Part shown: positions 44,454 to 54,531 of the stretch, in pieces
Position numbering within the stretch: position 1 is the first letter of the stretch
How the letters are laid out: each line of letters begins with the position of its first letter
Assembly (NCBI RefSeq): GCF_988243305.1
Contig: NZ_OZ547137.1
Length of the DNA stretch: 64,000 bases
Source of the DNA: a plasmid
Reading direction: 5' to 3' (one strand)
Notes under the pieces: model-generated
Database searches by the model: none
What the model saw: the letters and a program-made list of their open reading frames with translations, nothing else
What the model was told of the DNA's origin: nothing
Made by a program: the position numbers and the translations under genes

Positions 44454-46262
44454 CTAAAGCATTAGATCTTCAAAATTCAGCGTATGGCTGTGCGGCTTTT
44501 TGCGGAAAGACAGCTCGTTTATACGAAGCTTAAGTGGCATAGGGCAGATCACGCCACTGAATATGCAGGTGCCGGTTGCAAGCGTTGGAATAGATTCTTC
44601 AGTCATGCGGTCTATATAGGAAACGGATTTTTCAATAGCATACAGATCGTTCTGATTTATCAACCGGTGAATGAAATAGTTATGTGCCTGAGAAATGATA
44701 GTCGGGGAGATATCGTTTGGTCGCTGACTGGATATCGTCACAAAGACGCCAAATTTTCTGCCCTCCTTAATTATCTCTTCAAACGTTTCGAGCCGATAAT
44801 CCTTCCAGCTTTCTGATTCCCTGAACGAGGTGTTCGAAAGGATATTGTGTGCTTCGTCTATGATGAGATGGAGAGTGGACGGTACCTTATCCATTTTTTT
44901 TGCTGAATAGGCCCATTTGGCCATTAAAAGTGGTAGCGTTTTTTTCATGGTCAGATTGACCATATTAAGGTTCAGGACAACAAAGTTCGTTTCTGCCCAG
45001 ATGGTTCCGCCGGACGCAGTATTGAAAATTTTACGAGTATCTTTTTTCAGTCCGCTCATTCGATTGATGACAGGAGAAAGATGTTCAGGATTTGAGCGAC
45101 TTGAAAGATATTCAATAATTAGCTGAACATACATATAGTCCAGCAACTCTTCCATTATATCGTCGGGAAATTCATAATTCTGAGCCATCTGGTACATATT
45201 GCACTGATGAGTATTTTCTTCATTAGAAAAGTAAACGCCTGTCTTGGTTCGCCATACGCCGCCGTTGTTATAAAAAAATTCAATATCTGCTATCAGATCT
45301 TCGTCCTTCAGTACAGGACGGAATAAATCAATCAGGTCGTCACTTTTTTTCTTTTCGCAACCAAACAGAGTTTCGGTGACCCGCCGTTTCAGAATTTCAC
45401 GAAAATATGACTGAGGGTTCAGCTTCGACTCCACTCGCTTTTTGAATTCAAGCACTCGCTTCAGAAAAGGTTTCTGCGTTTTGTCGGTGGCATCCGTCAG
45501 GACAGAGATAATCTCATGCTCAAGCAGTATCTCAGCAGGCATCGGAATGCGATCACCCTCTTCATCATGCGTGCTAAGATTATAAACAACCTTGTCGCGC
45601 GTAATGCAGCTTCTCCCACCATATTCACCATTGAAATCAAATAAAAGAAACCGTGACCGACTTCTGAATCCTTCGCCTAGTAGGTTTTTCAGGGCCTCAT
45701 AGCCATGCTGATAAAGCGCGGCCAGAGTATTGGACTTGCCGCTGCCAGTATTACCGAAGATGGCGATGTGTGAGTTGAGAAGGCCGCTTATCGGGAGAGT
45801 GATATCAATATCTTCGAGATCGGTGCGCGAAAAATTCAGCCCGGACTCGCCCGCTGGCGCGATCGAGTGGATAAGATGAAGTTGTTCCTCAGACATCAGA
45901 AAAACTTCATTGCCGATAAGGGGCAACTCGCGAGTTCCACCAGTAAAGCGCCCGTTCCGGTCAATATAGCCTGCCAGTGAGGCTGTAAGATAGCGGCGGA
46001 AGCGAAGCGAATCGCTTCCGCTACCAACAGGTGATTTTTCCTCGACAATCTTCTCGGTTTCTACCTTTGCAATCAGACTCATGAATCCTTTTTTGACTTC
46101 GATGAAACTACCTACTGAAACATTTTTGAGCACCTTACCGTGATAAAAAAGATCACTCAGATTTTTATTTTTATCGACAAGCACACTGAGTGTTCTGCCC
46201 GATACTTCACGAACCTCACCGATCCTTAATACTGCTTCTTCGTTAACAAAAGCGGAGGTCAT
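44454..46262 (-). CDS. herA: HerA-like (FtsK/HerA superfamily) ATPase, partner of the SIR2 gene
   Basis: 602 aa; Walker A GNTGSGKSN and Walker B LIIDEAHN; start overlaps the upstream SIR2 stop (ATGA). Confidence 0.75.
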   Translation of the reverse strand: MTSAFVNEEAVLRIGEVREVSGRTLSVLVDKNKNLSDLFYHGKVLKNVSVGSFIEVKKGFMSLIAKVETEKIVEEKSPVGSGSDSLRFRRYLTASLAGYIDRNGRFTGGTRELPLIGNEVFLMSEEQLHLIHSIAPAGESGLNFSRTDLEDIDITLPISGLLNSHIAIFGNTGSGKSNTLAALYQHGYEALKNLLGEGFRSRSRFLLFDFNGEYGGRSCITRDKVVYNLSTHDEEGDRIPMPAEILLEHEIISVLTDATDKTQKPFLKRVLEFKKRVESKLNPQSYFREILKRRVTETLFGCEKKKSDDLIDLFRPVLKDEDLIADIEFFYNNGGVWRTKTGVYFSNEENTHQCNMYQMAQNYEFPDDIMEELLDYMYVQLIIEYLSSRSNPEHLSPVINRMSGLKKDTRKIFNTASGGTIWAETNFVVLNLNMVNLTMKKTLPLLMAKWAYSAKKMDKVPSTLHLIIDEAHNILSNTSFRESESWKDYRLETFEEIIKEGRKFGVFVTISSQRPNDISPTIISQAHNYFIHRLINQNDLYAIEKSVSYIDRMTEESIPTLATGTCIFSGVICPMPLKLRINELSFRKKPHSHTLNFEDLML

Positions 46263-46905
46263 TTCATACCTCCAAGAAAGCTGGTTATAATTTCATTCAT
46301 CTTTTTGAAGTCCAATGGGGCTCCAGGAGTAAAAACCACATCAACATTGGAATAATCACGGAATTTATCAAGGAATAGGTCTTTAGCCGCCTCATTGTAA
46401 GCGAATATAACAATTTTGAGCGTGGCGTTTCGCAGTGCTTTCTTGGTAAGAGTTTCAATATGCTCATCCGCAAAAGAAAATCCGAAAACTATAAGCAAAG
46501 AGCCTTCTTTATCCAGCTCATTTGAATAAGTCCGTAGCAGGTCGTAATACACGTTTTCAAGTAAGGTTTCACGAAATTTATCCTTTCGCGGCAGAACCAG
46601 TTGATGTGACATAACCCAGTCCTGCTTCTCCTTTGGTGTATTGAACGCAACTGGCTTCATATCCTTAATGGAATAATAGATTTCCTTATCATAGCTATGC
46701 CAAGAAAGGGAACCATGCAGCTTGATGAGATTCACCGTAGGTAGTTCCACGCTGTAATTATAAAGGTTCCCGGTTGCGTGTATGGTCTGATAAAAACATT
46801 TGGTATCGAATACTGTCCGGTTGTAAATATCGGCGCGCTGACGGAATCCTGATCTTACCCAGCAATAGTGGACACGCGGCTAAGTGAGTAAACTCTCAGT
46901 CAGAG

Positions 46906-47214
46906 GTGACTCACATGACAAAAACAGTATCAACCAGTAAAAAACCCCGTAAACAGCATTCGCCTGAATTTCGCAGTGAAGCCCTGAAGCTTGCTGAACG
47001 CATCGGTGTTACTGCCGCAGCCCGTGAACTCAGCCTGTATGAATCACAGCTCTACAACTGGCGCAGTAAACAGCAAAATCAGCAGACGTCTTCTGAACGT
47101 GAACTGGAGATGTCTACCGAGATTGCACGTCTCAAACGCCAGCTGGCAGAACGGGATGAAGAGCTGGCTATCCTCCAAAAGGCCGCGACATACTTCGCGA
47201 AGCGCCTGAAATGA
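46906..47214 (+). CDS. insE: IS3 OrfA
   Basis: Identical protein to 7625..7933. Confidence 0.95.
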
Positions 47215-48077
47215 AGTATGTCTTTATTGAAAAACATCAGGCTGAGTTCAGCATCAAAGCAATGTGCCGCGTGCTCCGGGTGGCCCGCAGCGGCTGGTAT
47301 ACGTGGTGTCAGCGGCGGACAAGGATAAGCACGCGTCAGCAGTTCCGCCAACACTGCGACAGCGTTGTCCTCGCGGCTTTTACCCGGTCAAAACAGCGTT
47401 ACGGTGCCCCACGCCTGACGGATGAACTGCGTGCTCAGGGTTACCCCTTTAACGTAAAAACCGTGGCGGCAAGCCTGCGCCGTCAGGGACTGAGGGCAAA
47501 GGCCTCCCGGAAGTTCAGCCCGGTCAGCTACCGCGCACACGGCCTGCCTGTGTCAGAAAATCTGTTGGAGCAGGATTTTTACGCCAGTGGCCCGAACCAG
47601 AAGTGGGCAGGAGACATCACGTACTTACGTACAGATGAAGGCTGGCTGTATCTGGCAGTGGTCATTGACCTGTGGTCACGTGCCGTTATTGGCTGGTCAA
47701 TGTCGCCACGCATGACGGCGCAACTGGCCTGCGATGCCCTGCAGATGGCGCTGTGGCGGCGTAAGAGGCCCCGGAACGTTATCGTTCACACGGACCGTGG
47801 AGGCCAGTACTGTTCAGCAGATTATCAGGCGCAACTGAAGCGGCATAATCTGCGTGGAAGTATGAGCGCAAAAGGTTGCTGCTACGATAATGCCTGCGTG
47901 GAAAGCTTCTTTCATTCGCTGAAAGTGGAATGTATCCATGGAGAACACTTTATCAGCCGGGAAATAATGCGGGCAACGGTGTTTAATTATATCGAATGTG
48001 ATTACAATCGGTGGCGGCGGCACAGTTGGTGTGGCGGCCTCAGTCCGGAACAATTTGAAAACAAGAACCTCGCTTAG
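47211..48077 (+). CDS. insF: IS3 OrfB
   Basis: Identical protein to 7930..8796. Confidence 0.95.
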
Positions 48078-48734
48078 GCCTGTGTCCATATTACGTGGGT
48101 AGGATCATCCATCATTCAGAATGACGTTGTTATTTTTAACCGCTGCATCCTCAATGAACAAATCATAGTTAGTCGTAAAGAGGTTGATACGCCGCGGTAG
48201 CAATCCAGTCCGCCGCCTCGTCAGAAGCATTTCTAATGCACGCATGAGCTTCGCGTAGTTGTTTTGTGTCGATACGACATCATCTATTAAAGTAGGAAGG
48301 ATTACCTCTGCGGGCAAGCTTCGCTTCAGGAGGACGTTGTTTGCCTTCCATACATTGTCCAGAAAAGACTCAGATTTACTGAAGTATTCATCATCCTTTC
48401 CGGCGCGGACCAGAGCCTCAAGCTCGCTTTCAATATCACCTAACACGCTGATTGCAGGCAGCGATGCTCCTGAGCCAATGATGAAATTGATGTTTGCTGA
48501 TTGAAATATGCGCTCAAAATATTCACGATCTCTGTCCTGCCCGTAGTAAGCCCGATAAGTCGCCACGCTGTGCCTTTCCTTAAATATCGTAGATAAGATG
48601 TATCTTACATGTTTCAACAAGTGATGCATCCTGTTTAAATTTCATTCTCTGACTCATATACAAACGCAGCTAAACGAATCAGGTAGGTAGTTTCATTGCT
48701 TCCGGCTTCACCAGAAACCGGATCTGACCTAGAA

Positions 48735-48818
48735 AAGAGAAAGAGTGTATGTAAGTTCTGTACTGTATGTATGGTATGTATGAATTGTATTGTATGTATT
48801 ATTTGTATTGTATGTATT
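48735..48818. repeat. degenerate TGTATG / TTGTATG tandem repeat array in a divergent intergenic region
   Basis: gtgtatgtaagttctgtactgtatgtatggtatgtatgaattgtattgtatgtattatttgtattgtatgtattgtgtat, between the SIR2 start and the KfrA-like gene. Confidence 0.8.
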
Positions 48819-48877
48819 GTGTATTTTTCATACCGGGCGTACGATGGCGCCATTCCCTGAGAAACCGGAGCCAGACC

Positions 48878-49489
48878 ATGACATCCCTCTCCCCGGACAC
48901 CGTCCGCCGCATTGAAGACGCCGCCGCCGCCCTGATCGCCGCCGGCACCCCGAACCCGACCAACGAGCAGGTCCGTCAGCACCTCGGCGGCGGCTCGCTG
49001 TCCCACATCTCCCCGGTGATGCGCGCGTTCCGCGCCCGCCAGCGCGAGCAGGCCACTGAGCAGGCCACGCCCCTGCCGCCGGAGCTGGCGCAGCTGCTGA
49101 CCGGCCAGCTGGGGCTGCTGTGGCAGGCGGCCGTGAAACAGGCTGAAGCCGGGGCCCTGGCGGCGCGCGAGCAGGCCGACGACGACATTGCCCGGGCCGA
49201 CAAGGAGCGGGATGAGGCGCTGGCGAACGTGGCCGCGCTGGAAAGCGAGCTGGCGGTGCTGCGCGAGGTGGTGGCCGAACGTGACCGCCTGCTGCAGGAG
49301 GTACGCGAGCTGCGCGCGGAAGCGCTGCCGCTGCGCGAGCAGGTGGCCCGCCTGACCGCCACCGGCGAACACCTGGCGGCGCAGCTGCAGGACACGAAGG
49401 CGGAGCTGAAGGAAGCCCGGGAGGACGGCCGCCAGCTTCAGACCGAACTGCTGGCTCTGGCCCGCCAGGACGGGAAGGTGAAGAAATGA
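48878..49489 (+). CDS. KfrA-like DNA-binding protein (N-terminal HTH, long Ala/Arg/Glu-rich coiled coil)
   Basis: MTSLSPDTVRRIEDAAAALIAAG...GGGSLSHISPVMRAFRARQ resembles the KfrA N-terminal domain; ~70% GC; start at ATG 48878 with upstream GGAG. Confidence 0.65.
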   Translation: MTSLSPDTVRRIEDAAAALIAAGTPNPTNEQVRQHLGGGSLSHISPVMRAFRARQREQATEQATPLPPELAQLLTGQLGLLWQAAVKQAEAGALAAREQADDDIARADKERDEALANVAALESELAVLREVVAERDRLLQEVRELRAEALPLREQVARLTATGEHLAAQLQDTKAELKEAREDGRQLQTELLALARQDGKVKK

Positions 49490-50106
49490 GACAGGAAAGA
49501 GTATTACGTATAAAGGCATTTCGACGGGCACTGGAGCTTGGTGGCGGTGAACGGGCTGACGGGTGTCGTCATTTTCCCCGCTGGAAAACGGAACTGAGGA
49601 ATTTCCCGCACGGCAGCTGCGATTTAGCCAGCAATACTCTGGCGTACTACCTCAAGGAACGAGAGAGATGCCATCCGTGCATCATTTTTATGGAAGGGAA
49701 CGCTGGCTTTCATGAAGCGGAAAACTCAACAGTTCACGGGCATGTCATCGTATTGCTGGACGGAGAGTACATCGATTTGACGCTGGATCAATTCGACGAA
49801 TATCCGGACTACATTCCTTACGAACCAGTCGAATCTGACGGGCAGATTGGTAAGCTGTTGCGTAATATCATGAAGCATGAGGACCAGGTAAAAACCCGCC
49901 AGATTGATCTCGATGGTGGCGAAGAGCTGTATGCCTGGTTACGCGATACCGCCGACGAAGTGCTGGCAGCAGATCCGGAATGGCAGGCCCGGGAACGGTC
50001 GATAGAAGAAGCAAGGGAAGCCGCTATTACGGTGTTCCCGTTTCTGTCTGACGTGCAAAAAACTGAGTGCGAACAGGGCCCGGACAGTCAGGAGGCTGCC
50101 AGATGA
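49486..50106 (+). CDS. hypothetical protein (206 aa), translationally coupled
   Basis: ATGA overlap with the KfrA-like stop; no family recognised (possible Cys/His catalytic-like core SCDLAS...HGHVIVLLDGEYIDL). Confidence 0.5.
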   Translation: MRQERVLRIKAFRRALELGGGERADGCRHFPRWKTELRNFPHGSCDLASNTLAYYLKERERCHPCIIFMEGNAGFHEAENSTVHGHVIVLLDGEYIDLTLDQFDEYPDYIPYEPVESDGQIGKLLRNIMKHEDQVKTRQIDLDGGEELYAWLRDTADEVLAADPEWQARERSIEEAREAAITVFPFLSDVQKTECEQGPDSQEAAR

Positions 50107-50891
50107 AGATTTATCATTACACTGACCTGAACGGCCTGAAGGGCATCATCGAATCAGGCTCACTGTGGGCGACGCACTTTTCCTTTCTCAATGACAGTAA
50201 TGAGCTGACTCACGGCATGAACTGCCTTGAGAATGCCCTGCAGTACCTGAGGGACGACTTTAACCCGAAAACCCTTAAGTTCATCGAACAGGCACTGACG
50301 CACTTCAGAATGCACCGGGCAGCTCACGTCTATAACCTTTCGTTCTGTCTCGAACCCGACCTGTTAAGCCAGTGGCGGGGTTATGGGAGCTCTCAGGGCG
50401 TGTGCCTGGAATTTGATGATGAAGAGCTGCTTGCCTCGCTGGAATTAACTCATTATCAGGTGTTTAAAAACCGGGTACTCTATACCAAAGAGGATTCCAC
50501 GGTTGAAGCCCGGAACGAAATCCTCGCCTTCTTTCGTCAGCCACATGTTCAGGCGGCAATAAATGCAGATGTAATGCATGAGATGATTCAGGCAACCAGA
50601 CTGGCACACAGCCTGCCGCCTTTTTTCAAGAATGACGGTTTCCAAGAGGAGCAGGAGTTCAGGATGGTAATCCTTCCGGAAAGCCCTTTTGAGGGTGTCA
50701 ATTTTCGTGTCAATGACAGCGGTCTGGTACCATATCTGATCATTAAAGCAAAAGACAAGCTGCCACTGACAAACGTCAGAATTGGTCCCCGCAGTAACAG
50801 AGCAATGATGATGGACGGGATTTCATTCCTGTTGCAGAGCAGGGGGTATACCAGTACACGGATTTCGTTTACTGAGACGCCGTTCCGGTAA
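50103..50891 (+). CDS. DUF2971-like protein (262 aa)
   Basis: N-terminus MKIYHYTDLNGLKGIIESGSLWATHFSFLNDSNE resembles the DUF2971 signature; ATGA overlap with the upstream ORF. Confidence 0.55.
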   Translation: MKIYHYTDLNGLKGIIESGSLWATHFSFLNDSNELTHGMNCLENALQYLRDDFNPKTLKFIEQALTHFRMHRAAHVYNLSFCLEPDLLSQWRGYGSSQGVCLEFDDEELLASLELTHYQVFKNRVLYTKEDSTVEARNEILAFFRQPHVQAAINADVMHEMIQATRLAHSLPPFFKNDGFQEEQEFRMVILPESPFEGVNFRVNDSGLVPYLIIKAKDKLPLTNVRIGPRSNRAMMMDGISFLLQSRGYTSTRISFTETPFR

Positions 50892-50926
50892 ATTCAGTTA
50901 AGAAGCACAAACTTCTAGGGATCAGT

Positions 50927-51667
50927 ATGTTGAATAAAGTTTCACAAATTAATTTGGCCAAAATACTGGCTGAAAAATTTAACGAAGGTGACTGGCAGGA
51001 GCTGTTTGCTGTTACAGATTGTGAAGACGTTCCGGAAGGACTAAATCAATTCTACCGGCATGTTCACTGGGACAACCCTGAGCTGAAAGGGGTGGCCATC
51101 GCTGCCATAGAAAGCACTCTGGCCAGGGACGCTGATAATCTTTCTAAGATCTGGGCGCTGGATAATGTTCAACGCTTTATCAGCATTGCCAATACTGAGT
51201 TATTCAATGAAATAAAGAACATTGTGAATCAGAACGGGCAAAGAAATGTTTCGGCAGCACCAGTGAAAAATGTAAATGAAAACATTTACCAGGCCTTAGA
51301 AGATGCGGAAGTGTTGCTTAAAAATAATGGGCCACACCGGGCATATGATCGTGTTCATACAGCTCTTCATGCTTCATTAAGACAAATGTGTGCCAACCAT
51401 GGAATTGCGACCAATAGTACAAATGATAATGTTCCAGGCTTGCTTTCTCTGATAACTGCACATCTCAAAGACCTGCCTGATGATGGAAGAAATGAAGATG
51501 TGTTTAAAATGTTGAGATCATCTGCCGCAATACTTCATGGGATCAATAACCTGCGTAACAATTACAGCATGGCCCATCCTACTGAAACTTTGCTGAATGA
51601 AGCCGATGCCCGTTTTGCCATAAATCTGGTTCGTTCCATCATGACTTATGTTGATGAGTTGCTTTAG
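50927..51667 (+). CDS. hypothetical protein (246 aa), possible Abi_C-like C-terminal domain
   Basis: C-terminal HGINNLRNNYSMAHP region is loosely reminiscent of abortive-infection C-terminal domains; inference only. Confidence 0.45.
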   Translation: MLNKVSQINLAKILAEKFNEGDWQELFAVTDCEDVPEGLNQFYRHVHWDNPELKGVAIAAIESTLARDADNLSKIWALDNVQRFISIANTELFNEIKNIVNQNGQRNVSAAPVKNVNENIYQALEDAEVLLKNNGPHRAYDRVHTALHASLRQMCANHGIATNSTNDNVPGLLSLITAHLKDLPDDGRNEDVFKMLRSSAAILHGINNLRNNYSMAHPTETLLNEADARFAINLVRSIMTYVDELL

Positions 51668-51955
51668 TTTTAATAAAAATATGAGACTCACAGCGAACAG
51701 ATAGAACTTCAACGAAGAAGTGAAGTACGGCCAGAATTTCGAGCTCTGGCCCTCCGGAAGATGCCGGACAGACGCATCATCCCGTCGCGGCCGCTTCCAT
51801 TTTTGTGTGTACTCAACCTGCCGGATCAGGATGGCGGCAGGATTTGCACCCGATGTTCCAGCCGCCTTGCCTCTTCCTGATCCCGGTATTCCCTCGCCTT
51901 TTTCATCATTTCTGCCGTTGGCTCCTGCAGTTTGTCGAGAAACTCCTTAGATCGT

Positions 51956-52768
51956 TTAGCCACCGACTGAAGGGAGACACTGTCCGTCCTGCCGGTATTG
52001 CGATTGGTGTAAACCAGGCGGGTAAGGGGGTCTGGTTAACTCCTTCCCTTCCATAAAGCGTTTGAAGATCCAGAGATATATATCAACCAGCTCCAGCCCT
52101 GCACTTTTTGTACCCGACTGGAAAACCAGCGGTTCAGCCGGCATGTTCGTCACATCCATGACCGGTAAACCGGGACCGTGTACCCACGGCATCTCACGTA
52201 TCTGGTAATAGAACTCCCTCAGCTCCCGCTGGGTGGTGTTGAACTGTGACTGCTGGTCCACAACGATGTCGGCTTTGCGATTTGGTGCTCCCAGGCGGGA
52301 ACAGATACCGCGCAATACGAACTGAAATCCAACCATATTGGGCATGATCTGCAGCTTTTGTTTACCGGTTTTGCAGTTATATCCCAGTTCGTCAAAGTGG
52401 GTCATCGCCCAGGACAACGCATCGGTAATCAATTCAATGTAACGGCGGTCCCCCAGGGTATGAACGCGCGCAAGCAGCTCACTGCAGACCTCACTGAACA
52501 GAGATGAGGACCTTCCATCATGGGCTTCGAGGCGGGCACGCCACGCTTTTTCAGCCAGTTCATTATCGAACAGGCTTGCCAGATTCAGTAGCAGCGGGTA
52601 ACGAAAGGGGGTCCAGTAGGCAACCCTGGGCACTGCAGGATTCATCCCCTGATCGAAGAACGAAATAATGGCGTGATCCCGTTTAACGACCAGCCAGACA
52701 TCAAACCGTATCCGGTGCTTCTTCTGCAGGACAAGCAGCGTATCAACCACCTCATCAAGGCGGTGCAT
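51956..52768 (-). CDS. hypothetical protein (270 aa), N-terminus uncertain
   Basis: Long ORF with a 66-aa overlapping ORF upstream in another frame (52755..52955); C-terminal LELVDIYLWIFKRF is loosely DUF3800-like. Confidence 0.4.
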   Translation of the reverse strand: MHRLDEVVDTLLVLQKKHRIRFDVWLVVKRDHAIISFFDQGMNPAVPRVAYWTPFRYPLLLNLASLFDNELAEKAWRARLEAHDGRSSSLFSEVCSELLARVHTLGDRRYIELITDALSWAMTHFDELGYNCKTGKQKLQIMPNMVGFQFVLRGICSRLGAPNRKADIVVDQQSQFNTTQRELREFYYQIREMPWVHGPGLPVMDVTNMPAEPLVFQSGTKSAGLELVDIYLWIFKRFMEGKELTRPPYPPGLHQSQYRQDGQCLPSVGG

Positions 52769-53280
52769 GCCAAGCTCTGCGGCGTGCAGACGCTGTACTT
52801 GTCAACGCCACGATCTTTGACCGTCTTATATCGACAGAGTTATCCGGCATGGTGTCAATCCGTTCACAATTTTTCCATCGGAGCAGCCTACCACCGGTGA
52901 TAACCTGACTTTGCCTGTAGTTTGTATACACAACCCCTGGCATTGAAACAAACATATGAAGTGTACTTCGGATATGACTGTACGCTCAGGAAGTACGGCA
53001 GATTCCGTCAAAAATTACCTGTAAAGACAGACATCAGAAAAACAGTGCTCGCCGCAGACCGGTGACCGGGCGAAGCCCGCGAACCGGCGAGGAAGCGCAA
53101 TGGATCTGTAGTTACAGTGAGCAGGTACGCCCTGAAGCCTTCATAATCGGTAGTGTATGCTGTTTTTCTGGAATGATTTATCCACATATCCAGAGGCCCG
53201 ATCCAGTAAACAGATCCATGAATGATCAACAAAGGATCCATTAAAGATCCCCATATCGCTGCAAACCTTGTCATTAATGG

Positions 53281-53420
53281 TCCGGGAGCACGATCACATA
53301 AGCTGTGGCATGTTACTGATAAACTGTAACAGGTTCATGATAAGCTGTATTCAGTAATACATATACTGCCGTAAGTTAATGACATAAACTATGGTCAGTA
53401 TGCCAGACTCAGTTGTTAAA
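53281..53420. promoter_or_regulatory. RepFIB upstream iterons (direct repeats)
   Basis: Repeated cataagctgtgg / gataaactgtaac / gataagctgtattc units. Confidence 0.7.
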
Positions 53421-53553
53421 TACAGGCTGCAGGTTTTTCTTCAGTCAGTTGACGGGGTTCTGACACACGATTTTCTGTTTATTCTTTTACTGTCCACAGG
53501 CAGGAGGCTTTCTGGAAAACGAAAATTCAGACATCAAAAAACTGTTCGGCGAG

Positions 53554-54531
53554 GTGGATAAGTCGTCCGGTGAGCTGGTGACACTGACACCAAACAATAA
53601 CAACACCGTACAACCTGTGGCGCTGATGCGTCTGGGCGTCTTTGTACCGACCCTTAAATCACTGAAGAACAGTAAAAAAAATACACTGTCACGTACTGAT
53701 GCCACGGAAGAGCTGACACGTCTTTCCCTGGCCCGTGCAGAGGGATTCGATAAAGTTGAGATCACCGGCCCCCGCCTGGATATGGATAACGATTTCAAGA
53801 CCTGGGTGGGGATCATTCATTCCTTTGCCCGCCATAACGTAATTGGTGACAAAGTTGAACTGCCTTTTGTCGAGTTTGCAAAACTGTGTGGTATACCTTC
53901 AAGCCAGTCATCCCGCAGGCTGCGTGAGCGCATCAGCCCTTCCCTGAAGCGCATTGCCGGTACCGTGATTTCGTTTTCCCGTACCGATGAGAAGCACACC
54001 CGGGAATATATCACCCATCTGGTACAGTCAGCCTACTACGATACTGAGCGGGATATTGTGCAGTTACAGGCCGATCCCCGCCTGTTTGAACTGTACCAGT
54101 TTGACAGAAAAGTCCTTCTCCAGCTTAAGGCGATTAATGCCCTGAAGCGACGGGAGTCCGCCCAGGCACTCTACACCTTTATAGAGAGCCTGCCCCGGGA
54201 TCCGGCACCGGTATCGCTGGCGCGGCTGCGTGCACGCCTCAATCTGAAGTCTCCTGTATTTTCCCAGAACCAGACGGTCAGACGGGCAATGGAGCAGTTG
54301 CGCGAGATTGGATACCTTGATTACACGGAGATCCAGCGGGGGCGGACAAAATTCTTCTGTATTCACTACCGGCGTCCCCGGTTAAAAGCGCCGAATGATG
54401 AGAGTAAGGAAAATCCGTTGCCACCTTCACCTGCGGAAAAAGTCAGTCCGGAGATGGCGGAGAAACTTGCCCTGCTTGAAAAACTGGGCATCACACTGGA
54501 TGACCTGGAAAAACTCTTCAAATCCCGCTGA
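53554..54531 (+). CDS. repA: RepFIB replication initiator RepA
   Basis: 325 aa [65 protein letters not shown]...; iteron arrays on both sides. Confidence 0.9.

What the first reader, a model, noticed from the sequence alone, without database searches (positions are those of the whole stretch)
48878..51667. Uncharacterized translationally coupled operon (KfrA-like, unknown, DUF2971-like, Abi_C-like) next to the SIR2-HerA locus
Four co-directional ORFs; the first three are linked by ATGA stop/start overlaps at 49486-49489 and 50103-50106. The first is a ~70% GC KfrA-like HTH plus coiled-coil protein, unlike the flanks. The second has no recognisable family. The third has a DUF2971-like N-terminus and the fourth a possible abortive-infection-type C-terminus. 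I cannot assign the combination to any described system; its position in a defense-island-like region makes a novel defense or plasmid-maintenance module plausible.
Basis: inference. Interest (0 to 1): 0.8.

Follow-up and report, generated by a model that had tools for sequence, protein, structure and literature searches.

The report
Plasmid kfrA operon carrying two abortive-infection genes
The four-gene operon is real, but it is a patchwork: a widespread plasmid gene pair (a KfrA-type DNA-binding repressor and an undescribed cysteine enzyme) followed by two genes from families already linked to anti-phage cell suicide. It is probably not one new four-part system.

Summary
Four co-directional genes lie at 48878-51667, with ATGA overlaps at 49486-49489 and 50103-50106. 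The window is an IncFIA/FIB E. coli plasmid backbone between ccdAB and RepFIB.

- ORF1 is a true KfrA-type HTH protein. It sits behind a conserved array of 9-nt TGTAT repeats, like the RA3 KfrA operator.
- ORF2 has no Pfam family but folds confidently as a transglutaminase/papain-like enzyme with invariant C45, H86 and D97.
- ORF3 is a DUF2971 ADP-ribosyltransferase-like protein with its H, Y and ExE motifs intact. This is the family of the single-gene Aristaios defence.
- ORF4 is an AbiJ-NTD5 plus HEPN protein with an invariant R210-x6-H217 motif.

Comparative loci show three separable units. kfrA+ORF2 is a coupled pair on more than 1,300 plasmids, mostly without ORF3 or ORF4. DUF2971 and AbiJ-like relatives occur alone elsewhere. 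ORF3 and ORF4 sit between ORF2 and a convergent DUF3800 gene that directly abuts ORF2 in other plasmids. GC content steps down from 0.73 to 0.42, and dS differs sharply between genes.

A 2025 paper already noted this domain combination, without experiments. The intact operon is rare (80 plasmids) and often decayed. Best reading: a plasmid backbone module with two Abi-type genes riding on it. Interest is moderate.

The parts
48746..48820 (.). Array of about 7 imperfect 9-nt direct repeats (consensus TGTATTGTA / TGTATGTAT), 58-132 bp upstream of the ORF1 start codon. Putative KfrA operator overlapping the operon promoter.
   Evidence: Tandem Repeats Finder gives period 9 and 6.9 copies. Start-to-start spacing is 9, 9, 9, 18. 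TGTAT repeats are present upstream of every kfrA-ORF2 locus examined, with 4-11 copies, and the number varies between plasmids by an 18-bp (2-unit) indel. RA3 KfrA represses its own promoter through five 9-nt repeats (PMC7783346). Binding was not tested here. The consensus scan found no sigma-70 promoter in this stretch.
48878..49489 (+). ORF1, 203 aa, KfrA-type protein: an N-terminal HTH followed by an alpha-helical coiled-coil tail. 72.5% GC.
   Evidence: Pfam KfrA_N, E 2.1e-21. It is 41% identical over 71 aa to R751 KfrA, E 2e-10. The residues shown to be critical in RA3 KfrA (N29, V32, R33, G39, S40, L41, I44, P46, M48, R52) are identical at the same positions, and W51 is F here. Weak SMC, Rad50 and LmuB coiled-coil hits cover residues ~97-197. 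dN/dS is 0.10-0.30.
49486..50106 (+). ORF2, 206 aa, an undescribed transglutaminase/papain-like Cys-His-Asp enzyme with a C-terminal three-helix extension. Translationally coupled to ORF1 (ATGA at 49486-49489).
50103..50891 (+). ORF3, 262 aa, DUF2971 ADP-ribosyltransferase-like protein. Translationally coupled to ORF2 (ATGA at 50103-50106).
   Evidence: Pfam DUF2971, E 1.8e-10. A weak Tox-ART-HYD1 hit covers the N-terminal YHYT. H5, Y94 (in LSQWRGYG), E183-x-E185 and R187 are invariant in 28 homologues down to 30% identity. These match the H-Y-ExE ART motifs described for DUF2971 (PMC12522546). phrog_1762, E 1e-24. dN/dS is 0.14-0.26.
50927..51667 (+). ORF4, 246 aa, AbiJ-family protein: an AbiJ-NTD5 N-terminal domain plus an Abi_C/HEPN RNase domain. 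It follows a 35-bp gap and has its own AGGGA ribosome-binding site.
   Evidence: Pfam Abi_C, E 2.1e-12; AbiJ_NTD5, E 2.1e-6; a weak HEPN hit. PADLOC AbiJ, E 3e-9. R210-N211...H217 (Rx6H) and D141-R142-x-H144 are invariant in 16 homologues. AbiJ-NTD5 was defined on an E. coli protein, 'w0043' (PMC3710099).
51829..52798 (-). Remnant of a convergent DUF3800 gene. The N-terminal ~50 codons are missing and the C-terminus is frameshifted. The intact 377-aa gene is the usual neighbour of kfrA-ORF2 in other plasmids.
   Evidence: tblastn with the intact L033 protein gives 84% identity over residues 51-311 and 62% over residues 278-377 in a different frame. The intact gene directly abuts ORF2 in L022, L023 and L040, and follows ORF4 in L033 and L035.

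Best explanation
The locus is a composite transcription unit on an IncF plasmid.

Part 1, the backbone pair (ORF1 + ORF2). This pair belongs to Enterobacterales plasmids. ORF1 is a KfrA-type HTH and coiled-coil protein. It most likely binds the 9-nt TGTAT repeat array in front of its own gene and represses the operon, as RA3 and IncP KfrA proteins do. By analogy it acts as an accessory plasmid-maintenance factor. ORF2 is its obligatorily coupled partner, a transglutaminase/papain-like cysteine enzyme (protease, deamidase or transglutaminase). Its substrate is unknown.

Part 2, the cargo (ORF3 + ORF4). These two genes were inserted between ORF2 and the neighbouring convergent DUF3800 gene, and they are expressed from the same KfrA-controlled promoter. 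ORF3 is a DUF2971 ADP-ribosyltransferase-like toxin. It belongs to the same family as the single-gene Aristaios abortive-infection system and is related to DarT. ORF4 is an AbiJ-type protein whose N-terminal NTD5 domain is proposed to sense a phage component and release its C-terminal HEPN RNase. Each of the two would act on its own as an abortive-infection effector, adding to the defence cluster that also holds SIR2-HerA.

Shown here: gene reality, domain identities, intact catalytic motifs, conserved repeats, independent distribution of the three units, and mosaic history.
Inferred: KfrA binding and repression, enzymatic activities, the anti-phage phenotype, and the independence of ORF3 and ORF4 in function.
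For: 1. Separate distribution.
- kfrA+ORF2 with a 4-nt overlap occurs without ORF3 or ORF4 in Serratia, Enterobacter, Klebsiella, Citrobacter, Cedecea and Pluralibacter plasmids (L006-L009, L022, L023, L025, L039, L040).
- ORF2-like genes are in 1,310 of 72,556 plasmid records. ORF3-like genes are in 546 (191 full length) and ORF4-like genes in 453 (100 full length). The full operon is in only 80.
- DUF2971 homologues at 30-51% identity are solitary (L010-L015, L038).
- AbiJ-like homologues at 45-76% identity have unrelated neighbours (L027-L032).

2. Insertion geometry. ORF2 is followed directly by the convergent DUF3800 gene in L022, L023 and L040. In the window, L033 and L035, ORF3 and ORF4 lie between ORF2 and that gene.

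3. Mosaic history.
- GC is 0.725, 0.523, 0.492 and 0.418 for ORF1-4.
- kfrA is 95-98% identical at the DNA level in loci where ORF2 is about 50% identical, and the break falls exactly at the gene border.
- dS for ORF2 is 1.2-3.8, against 0.1-0.6 for its neighbours. dN/dS is 0.1-0.3 for all four genes.
- L017 carries a kfrA 3' remnant and a second ORF2 allele after ORF3.

4. KfrA identity. KfrA_N, the RA3-critical HTH residues and the conserved 9-nt repeats are all present. In L006 the pair lies next to ParA and a KorB-domain ParB.

5. Experimental precedent. Aristaios (DUF2971) works as a single-gene abortive-infection system (PMC11381338). AbiJ is one of the Lactococcus lactis abortive-infection genes and was reclassified as a HEPN protein (PMC3710099). 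That AbiJ itself acts as a single gene is my recollection, not taken from a paper read here.

6. Catalytic motifs. All three predicted enzymes keep their catalytic motifs.
Against: - The ORF2/ORF3 ATGA overlap is kept even where ORF2 is only 59% identical (L033, L034). The block kfrA-ORF2-ORF3-ORF4-(DUF3800) moves as a unit through different contexts. Both facts would also fit a functional link.
- ORF3 and ORF4 were found only next to the 202-206-aa clade of ORF2.
- No promoter or terminator was detected by the simple scans, so co-transcription and KfrA control are inferred.
- No function has been shown for this KfrA-like protein or for ORF2. A plasmid-maintenance role is borrowed from IncP and IncU KfrA, which are longer (308-355 aa) and have different partners.
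- I could not compare ORF3 directly with the Aristaios sequence.
- The census rests on about 25 loci and on BLAST counts, not on a complete neighbourhood survey.
Confidence: 0.55

Rival explanations
1. The four genes form one integrated defence system. KfrA acts as a DNA-binding sensor or regulator. ORF2 is a cysteine protease or deamidase that activates or licenses the effectors. The DUF2971 ART and the AbiJ HEPN RNase are the two effectors.
For: Tight translational coupling of ORF1-ORF2-ORF3 is conserved across divergent alleles. The block is inherited together in different genomic contexts (L016, L018, L033-L035). Neighbours are defence-rich. PMC12522546 treats it as one operon.
Against: Each unit is found far more often without the others. 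kfrA-ORF2 exists with no co-directional downstream cargo at all (L022, L023, L040). Different GC and dS values per gene show separate histories. Members of both effector families are abortive-infection genes in Lactococcus, and Aristaios was shown there to work as a single gene.
Confidence: 0.15
2. The locus is a plasmid-maintenance or addiction module with no anti-phage role. KfrA and ORF2 help segregation. ORF3 and ORF4 are toxins used for post-segregational killing or for competition with other plasmids.
For: The locus lies between ccdAB/resD and RepFIB in the IncF maintenance region. KfrA proteins support plasmid stability in IncP and IncU plasmids. In L006 the pair lies near ParA and a KorB-domain ParB.
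Against: No antitoxin-like partner was identified for ORF3 (no macrodomain) or for ORF4. The operon is frequently deleted or truncated on successful plasmids, such as pO157 and about 350 plasmids that keep only an ORF4 3' stub. That is not expected of an addiction module. The experimentally tested family members are abortive-infection systems.
Confidence: 0.15
3. ORF2 and ORF3 form a toxin-antitoxin-like pair. The cysteine enzyme reverses or blocks the ART, as DarG does for DarT. KfrA is the transcriptional regulator.
For: The ATGA overlap of ORF2 and ORF3. pO157-type plasmids lost ORF3 but kept an intact ORF2, as happens with orphan antitoxins. DUF2971 is related to DarT.
Against: About 887 plasmids carry divergent ORF2 alleles, and none of the divergent-allele loci examined has a DUF2971 gene. 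DUF2971 homologues lack ORF2-like neighbours. ORF2 is not a macrodomain and is coupled first of all to kfrA. ORF2 alleles were swapped while ORF3 stayed the same, which argues against tight co-adaptation.
Confidence: 0.08

Closest known systems
KfrA of IncP (RK2, R751) and IncU (RA3) plasmids
   Same: The N-terminal KfrA_N HTH carries the same DNA-contact residues as RA3 KfrA. The tail is alpha-helical. The gene is preceded by iterated 9-nt repeats like the RA3 operator. It sits in a plasmid maintenance region.
   Different: It is shorter (203 aa against 308-355). It is not part of a kfrA-kfrB-kfrC operon, since ORF2 is unrelated to KfrB and KfrC. It is always coupled to a transglutaminase-like enzyme instead. 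There are no KorA or KorB genes nearby in the IncF context. Its GC is 72.5% and it is nearly identical across plasmids of several genera.
Aristaios (Lactococcus DUF2971 single-gene antiphage system) and DarT-type DNA ADP-ribosyltransferases
   Same: ORF3 has the DUF2971 domain and the conserved H, Y and ExE motifs of the HYE ART clade. The family includes a validated abortive-infection gene.
   Different: Here the gene is embedded in an operon and translationally coupled to an upstream gene. There is no DarG-like macrodomain. Sequence similarity to Aristaios itself was not tested. The target (DNA or protein) is unknown.
AbiJ (Lactococcus abortive infection protein; HEPN family with AbiJ-NTD domains)
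   Same: The Abi_C/HEPN domain has the invariant Rx6H motif. The AbiJ-NTD5 N-terminal domain is present. The PADLOC AbiJ profile hits at E 3e-9.
   Different: It is only distantly related to lactococcal AbiJ (35 bits). It is plasmid-borne in Enterobacterales and lies downstream of an ART gene. No phenotype is known.
Transglutaminase/papain-like cysteine enzymes: SseI and PMT-C3 deamidases, protein-glutaminase, LapG, and the McjB lasso-peptide leader peptidase
   Same: ORF2 shares the core fold and a Cys-His-Asp arrangement.
Repressor-protease regulatory pairs (ImmR/ImmA of ICEBs1; CapH/CapP of CBASS). This comparison rests on my own knowledge and was not tested.
   Same: An HTH repressor gene sits next to a protease-fold gene, close to mobile-element or defence cargo.
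   Different: Those proteases are metallopeptidases. No cleavage of KfrA is known. The kfrA-ORF2 pair also occurs with no downstream cargo (L022, L023, L040).

Membership tests
KfrA | N-terminal KfrA_N helix-turn-helix domain with the DNA-contact residues | tested here: met
   Pfam KfrA_N, E 2.1e-21. BLASTP against R751 KfrA, E 2e-10. N29, V32, R33, G37-39, S40, L41, I44, P46, M48 and R52 are identical to the RA3-critical residues, and W51 is F.
KfrA | Long alpha-helical coiled-coil C-terminal part | tested here: inconclusive
   Only indirect evidence: weak hits of residues ~97-197 to many coiled-coil families (SMC, Rad50, LmuB, YabA). No structure model was made. The tail is about 100 aa, shorter than in RK2, R751 and RA3.
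KfrA | Autoregulation through a repeated operator at its own promoter | tested here: inconclusive
   About 7 x 9-nt repeats lie at 48746-48820 and are conserved in all related loci. This parallels the RA3 operator of 5 x 9 nt. Binding and repression cannot be tested with these tools.
kfrA-kfrB-kfrC operon (IncP) | Downstream genes homologous to KfrB and KfrC | tested here: not met
   hhalign of the ORF2 family profile against R751 KfrC gives probability 0.1%, and against KfrB 0.4%.
DUF2971 / HYE-clade ADP-ribosyltransferase (Aristaios-like) | DUF2971 domain with conserved H (motif I), Y (motif II) and ExE (motif III) | tested here: met
   Pfam E 1.8e-10. H5, Y94 and E183-x-E185 are invariant in 28 homologues. 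The motifs are as described in PMC12522546.
DUF2971 / Aristaios | Single gene sufficient for abortive-infection phage defence | not testable with these tools
   Homologues at 30-51% identity are solitary genes in mobile-element or defence contexts, which is compatible with this feature. The phenotype needs an experiment.
DarTG toxin-antitoxin | Cognate macrodomain antitoxin (DarG) next to the ART | tested here: not met
   No macrodomain hit was found for ORF1, ORF2 or ORF4 in Pfam, NCBIfam or PADLOC. ORF2 has a transglutaminase-like fold.
AbiJ | C-terminal Abi_C/HEPN domain with the Rx4-6H motif | tested here: met
   Abi_C, E 2.1e-12. R210-x6-H217 is invariant.
AbiJ | One of the AbiJ N-terminal domains (NTD1-5) | tested here: met
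   AbiJ_NTD5, E 2.1e-6, residues 8-75. NTD5 was defined on an E. coli protein.
AbiJ | Confers abortive infection | not testable with these tools
   PADLOC AbiJ profile E 3e-9 and 35 bits. No phenotype data exist.
Transglutaminase/papain-like cysteine enzymes | Core fold with a Cys-His-Asp triad | tested here: met
Pfam Transglut_core / YunG | Significant match to the family profile | tested here: not met
   The best hit is YunG at E 0.049 for ORF2. In 22 relatives only 1 reaches E<=0.001.

The most novel reading that the evidence does not exclude
kfrA+ORF2 is a new two-component switch, not a segregation accessory. In this reading an HTH/coiled-coil repressor bound to 9-nt iterons is paired with a transglutaminase-like cysteine protease or deamidase that modifies it (or a host or phage protein) on a signal. 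The pair would mark a recombination hotspot on Enterobacterales plasmids where defence cargo such as DUF2971 and AbiJ is plugged in and placed under its control. The deep ORF2 allelic lineages next to near-identical kfrA would then reflect selection for different specificities.
Probability: 0.1. Interest if true: 0.7.

Novelty: new variant of a known kind. Interest (0 to 1): 0.4.

Why it matters
The region lies on IncF virulence and resistance plasmids. Pieces of it are present in 14% of complete E. coli genomes, including pO157, and divergent ORF2 alleles are on about 500 Klebsiella plasmids.

If ORF3 and ORF4 are active, they add two abortive-infection genes to the defence load of these plasmids. 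They would also be the first Enterobacterales DUF2971 and AbiJ-NTD5 candidates to test.

The more open question is the kfrA-ORF2 pair. It is a conserved, translationally coupled partnership of a KfrA-type DNA binder with an undescribed cysteine enzyme, found on more than 1,300 plasmids, and it has no known function. Its pattern of allele replacement is unusual. Solving it would extend KfrA biology beyond the IncP and IncU plasmids.

Tried and rejected
- Single-sequence AF2 model of ORF2: pLDDT 44, unusable. It was replaced by the alignment-based model.
- Profile search of the ORF2 family against PDB sequences: no credible hit.
- NCBIfam, PADLOC and PHROGs for ORF2: nothing.
- Rfam on 48000-53600: no RNA family.
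- Promoter and terminator scan: no consensus sigma-70 site upstream of ORF1 and no convincing terminator. There were fewer hits than in shuffles, so promoter placement is inferred.
- RK2 (BN000925) and RA3 (DQ401103) records are not in the collections. R751 was used instead.
- P0155, a protein with KfrA_N fused to a DUF2971 C-terminus, looked like a Rosetta-stone fusion. It is a deletion product joining KfrA residue ~106 to ORF3 residue ~127 and lacks ART motifs I and II, on a single 4.5-kb contig. I rejected it as evidence of a functional link.
- Accelerated evolution or positive selection of ORF2: rejected, because dS is raised as much as dN and dN/dS is 0.13-0.27. Replacement by old divergent alleles fits better.
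- Context of a distant 149-aa ORF2-like protein: a short contig, uninformative.
- Antisense ORFs in the high-GC kfrA region (48635-49531 and 48976-49395, minus strand): treated as GC artefacts, because the plus-strand frame has the Pfam match and is under purifying selection.
- Literature searches for KfrA with abortive infection or with IncFIB found no functional study of this locus.
Full report
OBSERVATION. The four ORFs exist as described: ORF1 at 48878-49489, ORF2 at 49486-50106, ORF3 at 50103-50891 and ORF4 at 50927-51667, all on the + strand. The ATGA stop/start overlaps are at 49486-49489 and 50103-50106. ORF4 follows a 35-bp gap and has its own AGGGA ribosome-binding site. GC falls stepwise along the operon: 0.725, 0.523, 0.492 and 0.418, against a window mean of 0.457. 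Against orthologues, all four genes have dN/dS of 0.10-0.30, so they are genuine coding genes under purifying selection.

WHERE IT IS. Megablast places the region on E. coli IncFIA/FIB(/FII) plasmids. The order is parM/stability genes, a SopA-like ATPase, resD, ccdBA, SIR2-HerA, this operon, and then RepFIB. 1,010 of 72,556 plasmid records match some part, but only 80 carry at least 80% of it. Among 5,426 complete E. coli genomes, 745 hold a piece and 55 hold the whole operon, almost always on plasmids. Decay is common. pO157 (EDL933, Sakai) keeps ORF1, ORF2 and a 64-codon stub of ORF3 directly before RepFIB, and has no SIR2-HerA. About 350 plasmids keep only the last 82 codons of ORF4.

THE FOUR PROTEINS.

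ORF1 matches Pfam KfrA_N (E 2.1e-21) and the N-terminus of R751 KfrA (41% identity over 71 aa, E 2e-10). The residues whose alanine substitution abolishes repression by RA3 KfrA are N29, V32, R33, G39, S40, L41, I44, P46, M48, W51 and R52 (PMC7783346). They are present at the same positions in ORF1, with F in place of W51. Residues ~97-197 give many weak coiled-coil hits.

ORF3 matches DUF2971 (E 1.8e-10). It keeps H5 (in YHYT), Y94 (in LSQWRGYG) and E183-x-E185 invariant across 28 homologues. These are the H-Y-ExE motifs that led PMC12522546 to place DUF2971 in the HYE clade of ADP-ribosyltransferases, near DarT, AbiGi and Tox-ART-HYD1.

ORF4 matches Abi_C (E 2.1e-12), AbiJ_NTD5 (E 2.1e-6) and PADLOC AbiJ (E 3e-9). 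Its HEPN motif R210-x6-H217 is invariant. AbiJ-NTD5 was originally defined on an E. coli protein (PMC3710099).

UPSTREAM REPEATS. An array of about seven 9-nt units (TGTATTGTA / TGTATGTAT) lies at 48746-48820, 58-132 bp before the ORF1 start. TGTAT repeats, 4-11 copies, precede kfrA in every related locus examined, including ones with only 80-84% KfrA identity. The copy number differs by two units (18 bp) between otherwise near-identical plasmids. RA3 KfrA represses its own promoter 500-fold through five 9-nt repeats that overlap the -35 and -10 elements. The anatomy here is the same, but binding is inferred. The simple consensus scan found no sigma-70 site in this stretch.

THE OPERON IS A COMPOSITE.

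(a) kfrA+ORF2 is the conserved unit. Divergent ORF2 homologues (41-62% identity) from Serratia, Enterobacter, Klebsiella, Citrobacter, Cedecea and Pluralibacter are preceded by a kfrA gene with the same 4-nt overlap, and they have no DUF2971 or Abi_C gene downstream (L006-L009, L022, L023, L025, L039, L040). tblastn finds ORF2-like genes in 1,310 plasmid records, 887 of them below 60% identity.

(b) DUF2971 homologues at 30-51% identity are solitary genes. They sit next to umuDC and toxin-antitoxin genes, in a P4-like integrase island, or on an IncFII/IncR plasmid (L010-L015, L038).

(c) AbiJ-like homologues at 45-76% identity have neighbours with no similarity to ORF1, ORF2 or ORF3 (L027-L032).

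(d) In L022, L023 and L040, ORF2 is followed directly by a convergent 377-aa DUF3800 gene. In the window, L033 and L035, ORF3 and ORF4 lie between ORF2 and that gene. ORF3 and ORF4 therefore look like an insertion into a pre-existing backbone. In the window the DUF3800 copy is truncated and frameshifted (51829-52798).

(e) The genes have different histories. kfrA and about 160 bp upstream of it are 95-98% identical at the DNA level in loci whose ORF2 is about 50% identical, and the drop falls exactly at the ATGA junction. Against L033, kfrA, ORF3, ORF4 and DUF3800 are 80-87% identical in protein while ORF2 is 59%, and homology resumes at the ORF3 start codon. dS for ORF2 is 1.2-3.8, against 0.1-0.6 for its neighbours, and dN/dS is similar. 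This indicates replacement by old alleles and not fast protein evolution. L017 carries kfrA-ORF2-ORF3 followed by a kfrA 3' remnant and a second, 268-aa-type ORF2. That is a direct footprint of recombination within kfrA.

WHAT IS KNOWN.
- Aristaios, a 316-aa DUF2971 protein from a lactococcal plasmid, is an experimentally validated single-gene system with an abortive-infection phenotype (PMC11381338).
- AbiJ is one of the Lactococcus lactis abortive-infection genes and was reinterpreted as a HEPN RNase with a sensor N-terminal domain (PMC3710099).
- KfrA proteins are autorepressors that assist plasmid maintenance in IncP and IncU plasmids.
- ORF2 is not KfrB or KfrC, so the operon is not kfrABC.

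MECHANISM PROPOSED (confidence 0.55). KfrA dimers bind the 9-nt array and keep the operon at a low level. Translational coupling delivers ORF2, and in this lineage ORF3, in proportion. KfrA with ORF2 performs a plasmid-backbone function. That function is probably related to maintenance, given the position next to ccdAB and the Rep genes and, in L006, next to ParA and a KorB-domain ParB. The substrate of the ORF2 cysteine enzyme is unknown. ORF3 and ORF4 are two independent abortive-infection effectors, an ADP-ribosyltransferase and a HEPN RNase, that ride on this transcription unit inside a defence-rich stretch of the plasmid.

Rivals: an integrated four-gene system (0.15), a maintenance or addiction role only (0.15), and an ORF2-ORF3 toxin-antitoxin-like pair (0.08). 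What keeps the integrated reading alive is that the ORF2/ORF3 overlap is conserved even across swapped ORF2 alleles, and that the block is inherited as a whole.

UNEXPLAINED. It is not clear why deeply diverged ORF2 alleles persist between near-identical kfrA and conserved downstream genes, with breakpoints exactly at the gene borders. It is also not clear what the constant DUF3800 neighbour does. The most novel reading that remains open is that kfrA+ORF2 is a repressor/protease-type switch marking a cargo hotspot. It is weakened by loci where the pair has no co-directional cargo (L022, L023, L040).

VERDICT. The locus combines new members of known families (KfrA, DUF2971 ART, AbiJ) with one undescribed cysteine-enzyme family in a fixed partnership with KfrA. 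The domain combination has been noted in print, and nothing has been tested experimentally. Interest is moderate (0.4).

Noticed in passing
window 46259-48629 (- strand SIR2 fragments at 46259-46750 and 48105-48629; IS ORFs at 46906-47214 and 47211-48077, +): An IS3-family insertion splits the SIR2 gene of the adjacent SIR2-HerA defence system. The upstream fragment matches PADLOC SIR2 profile positions 2-152 and the downstream fragment matches 186-346. The gene is intact (1,047 bp) in related plasmids such as CP058026. The neighbouring defence system is therefore probably inactive in this plasmid.
   Followed up: partly
window 51829-52798 (-): A DUF3800-family gene is reduced to a remnant here: about 50 N-terminal codons are missing and the C-terminus is frameshifted. 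The intact 377-aa gene is the constant convergent neighbour of kfrA-ORF2, or of ORF4, in L022, L023, L033, L035 and L040. It has no PADLOC or NCBIfam hit and its function is unknown. It may belong to the backbone module.
   Followed up: partly
window 49483-50102, compared with L007, L022, L006, L025 and L033: ORF2 exists as deeply diverged alleles (44-61% amino-acid identity, dS 1.2-3.8), flanked by kfrA at 80-98% identity and, where present, ORF3 and ORF4 at 83-87%. The identity breaks fall exactly at the two ATGA junctions. Allele replacement is the likely cause, but the reason the alleles persist is unknown.
   Followed up: partly
window 48746-48820, compared with L002 and L016: The 9-nt TGTAT repeat array differs by one 18-bp block (two units) between otherwise about 99% identical plasmids. 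This is copy-number variation in the putative KfrA operator.
   Followed up: partly
L017 2837-5808 (Enterobacter genomosp. O contig): kfrA-ORF2-ORF3 is followed not by ORF4 but by the last codons of kfrA (...DGKVKK) fused in front of a second, 268-aa-type ORF2 paralogue. This is a footprint of recombination inside kfrA. L021 (Escherichia sp. ESNIH1) also carries two kfrA/ORF2-like pairs.
   Followed up: partly
about 350 PLSDB plasmids, e.g. NZ_CP083875.1 151139-151522 (matching window 51417-51800): Many IncF plasmids keep only the last 82 codons of ORF4, which include the HEPN Rx6H motif. This stub is annotated as 'abortive infection family protein'. It is a remnant that automated defence-system counts could misread as a gene.
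   Followed up: no
L007 7633-9769; also L017 7371-8591, L022 6928-8187 and L023 8439-10041: A recurring gene set lies a few kb downstream of kfrA-ORF2 on related plasmids: an 84-aa ORF, a ~406-aa protein starting MTT.N.RRPSPLQRRVLIVLAALG, and a DUF6884 protein that matches PADLOC DpdC at E 6.5e-43. In L024 a 218-aa relative of the 406-aa protein replaces kfrA as the gene overlapping the ORF2 start.
   Followed up: no
window 48700-48735, and the corresponding position in L007, L008, L017, L022, L023 and L033: A short conserved element, (A/G)GATCCG...TTTTCGGATCTG, lies just upstream of the TGTAT array in most kfrA loci and can form a hairpin. In the window only the right half (AACCGGATCTGACC) is kept. 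Its role is unknown.
   Followed up: no
protein P0155 (Logan contig, 4.5 kb): An in-frame deletion joins KfrA residues 1-~106 to ORF3 from residue ~127. It removes ORF2 and ART motifs I and II. This is another example of how the operon decays.
   Followed up: yes
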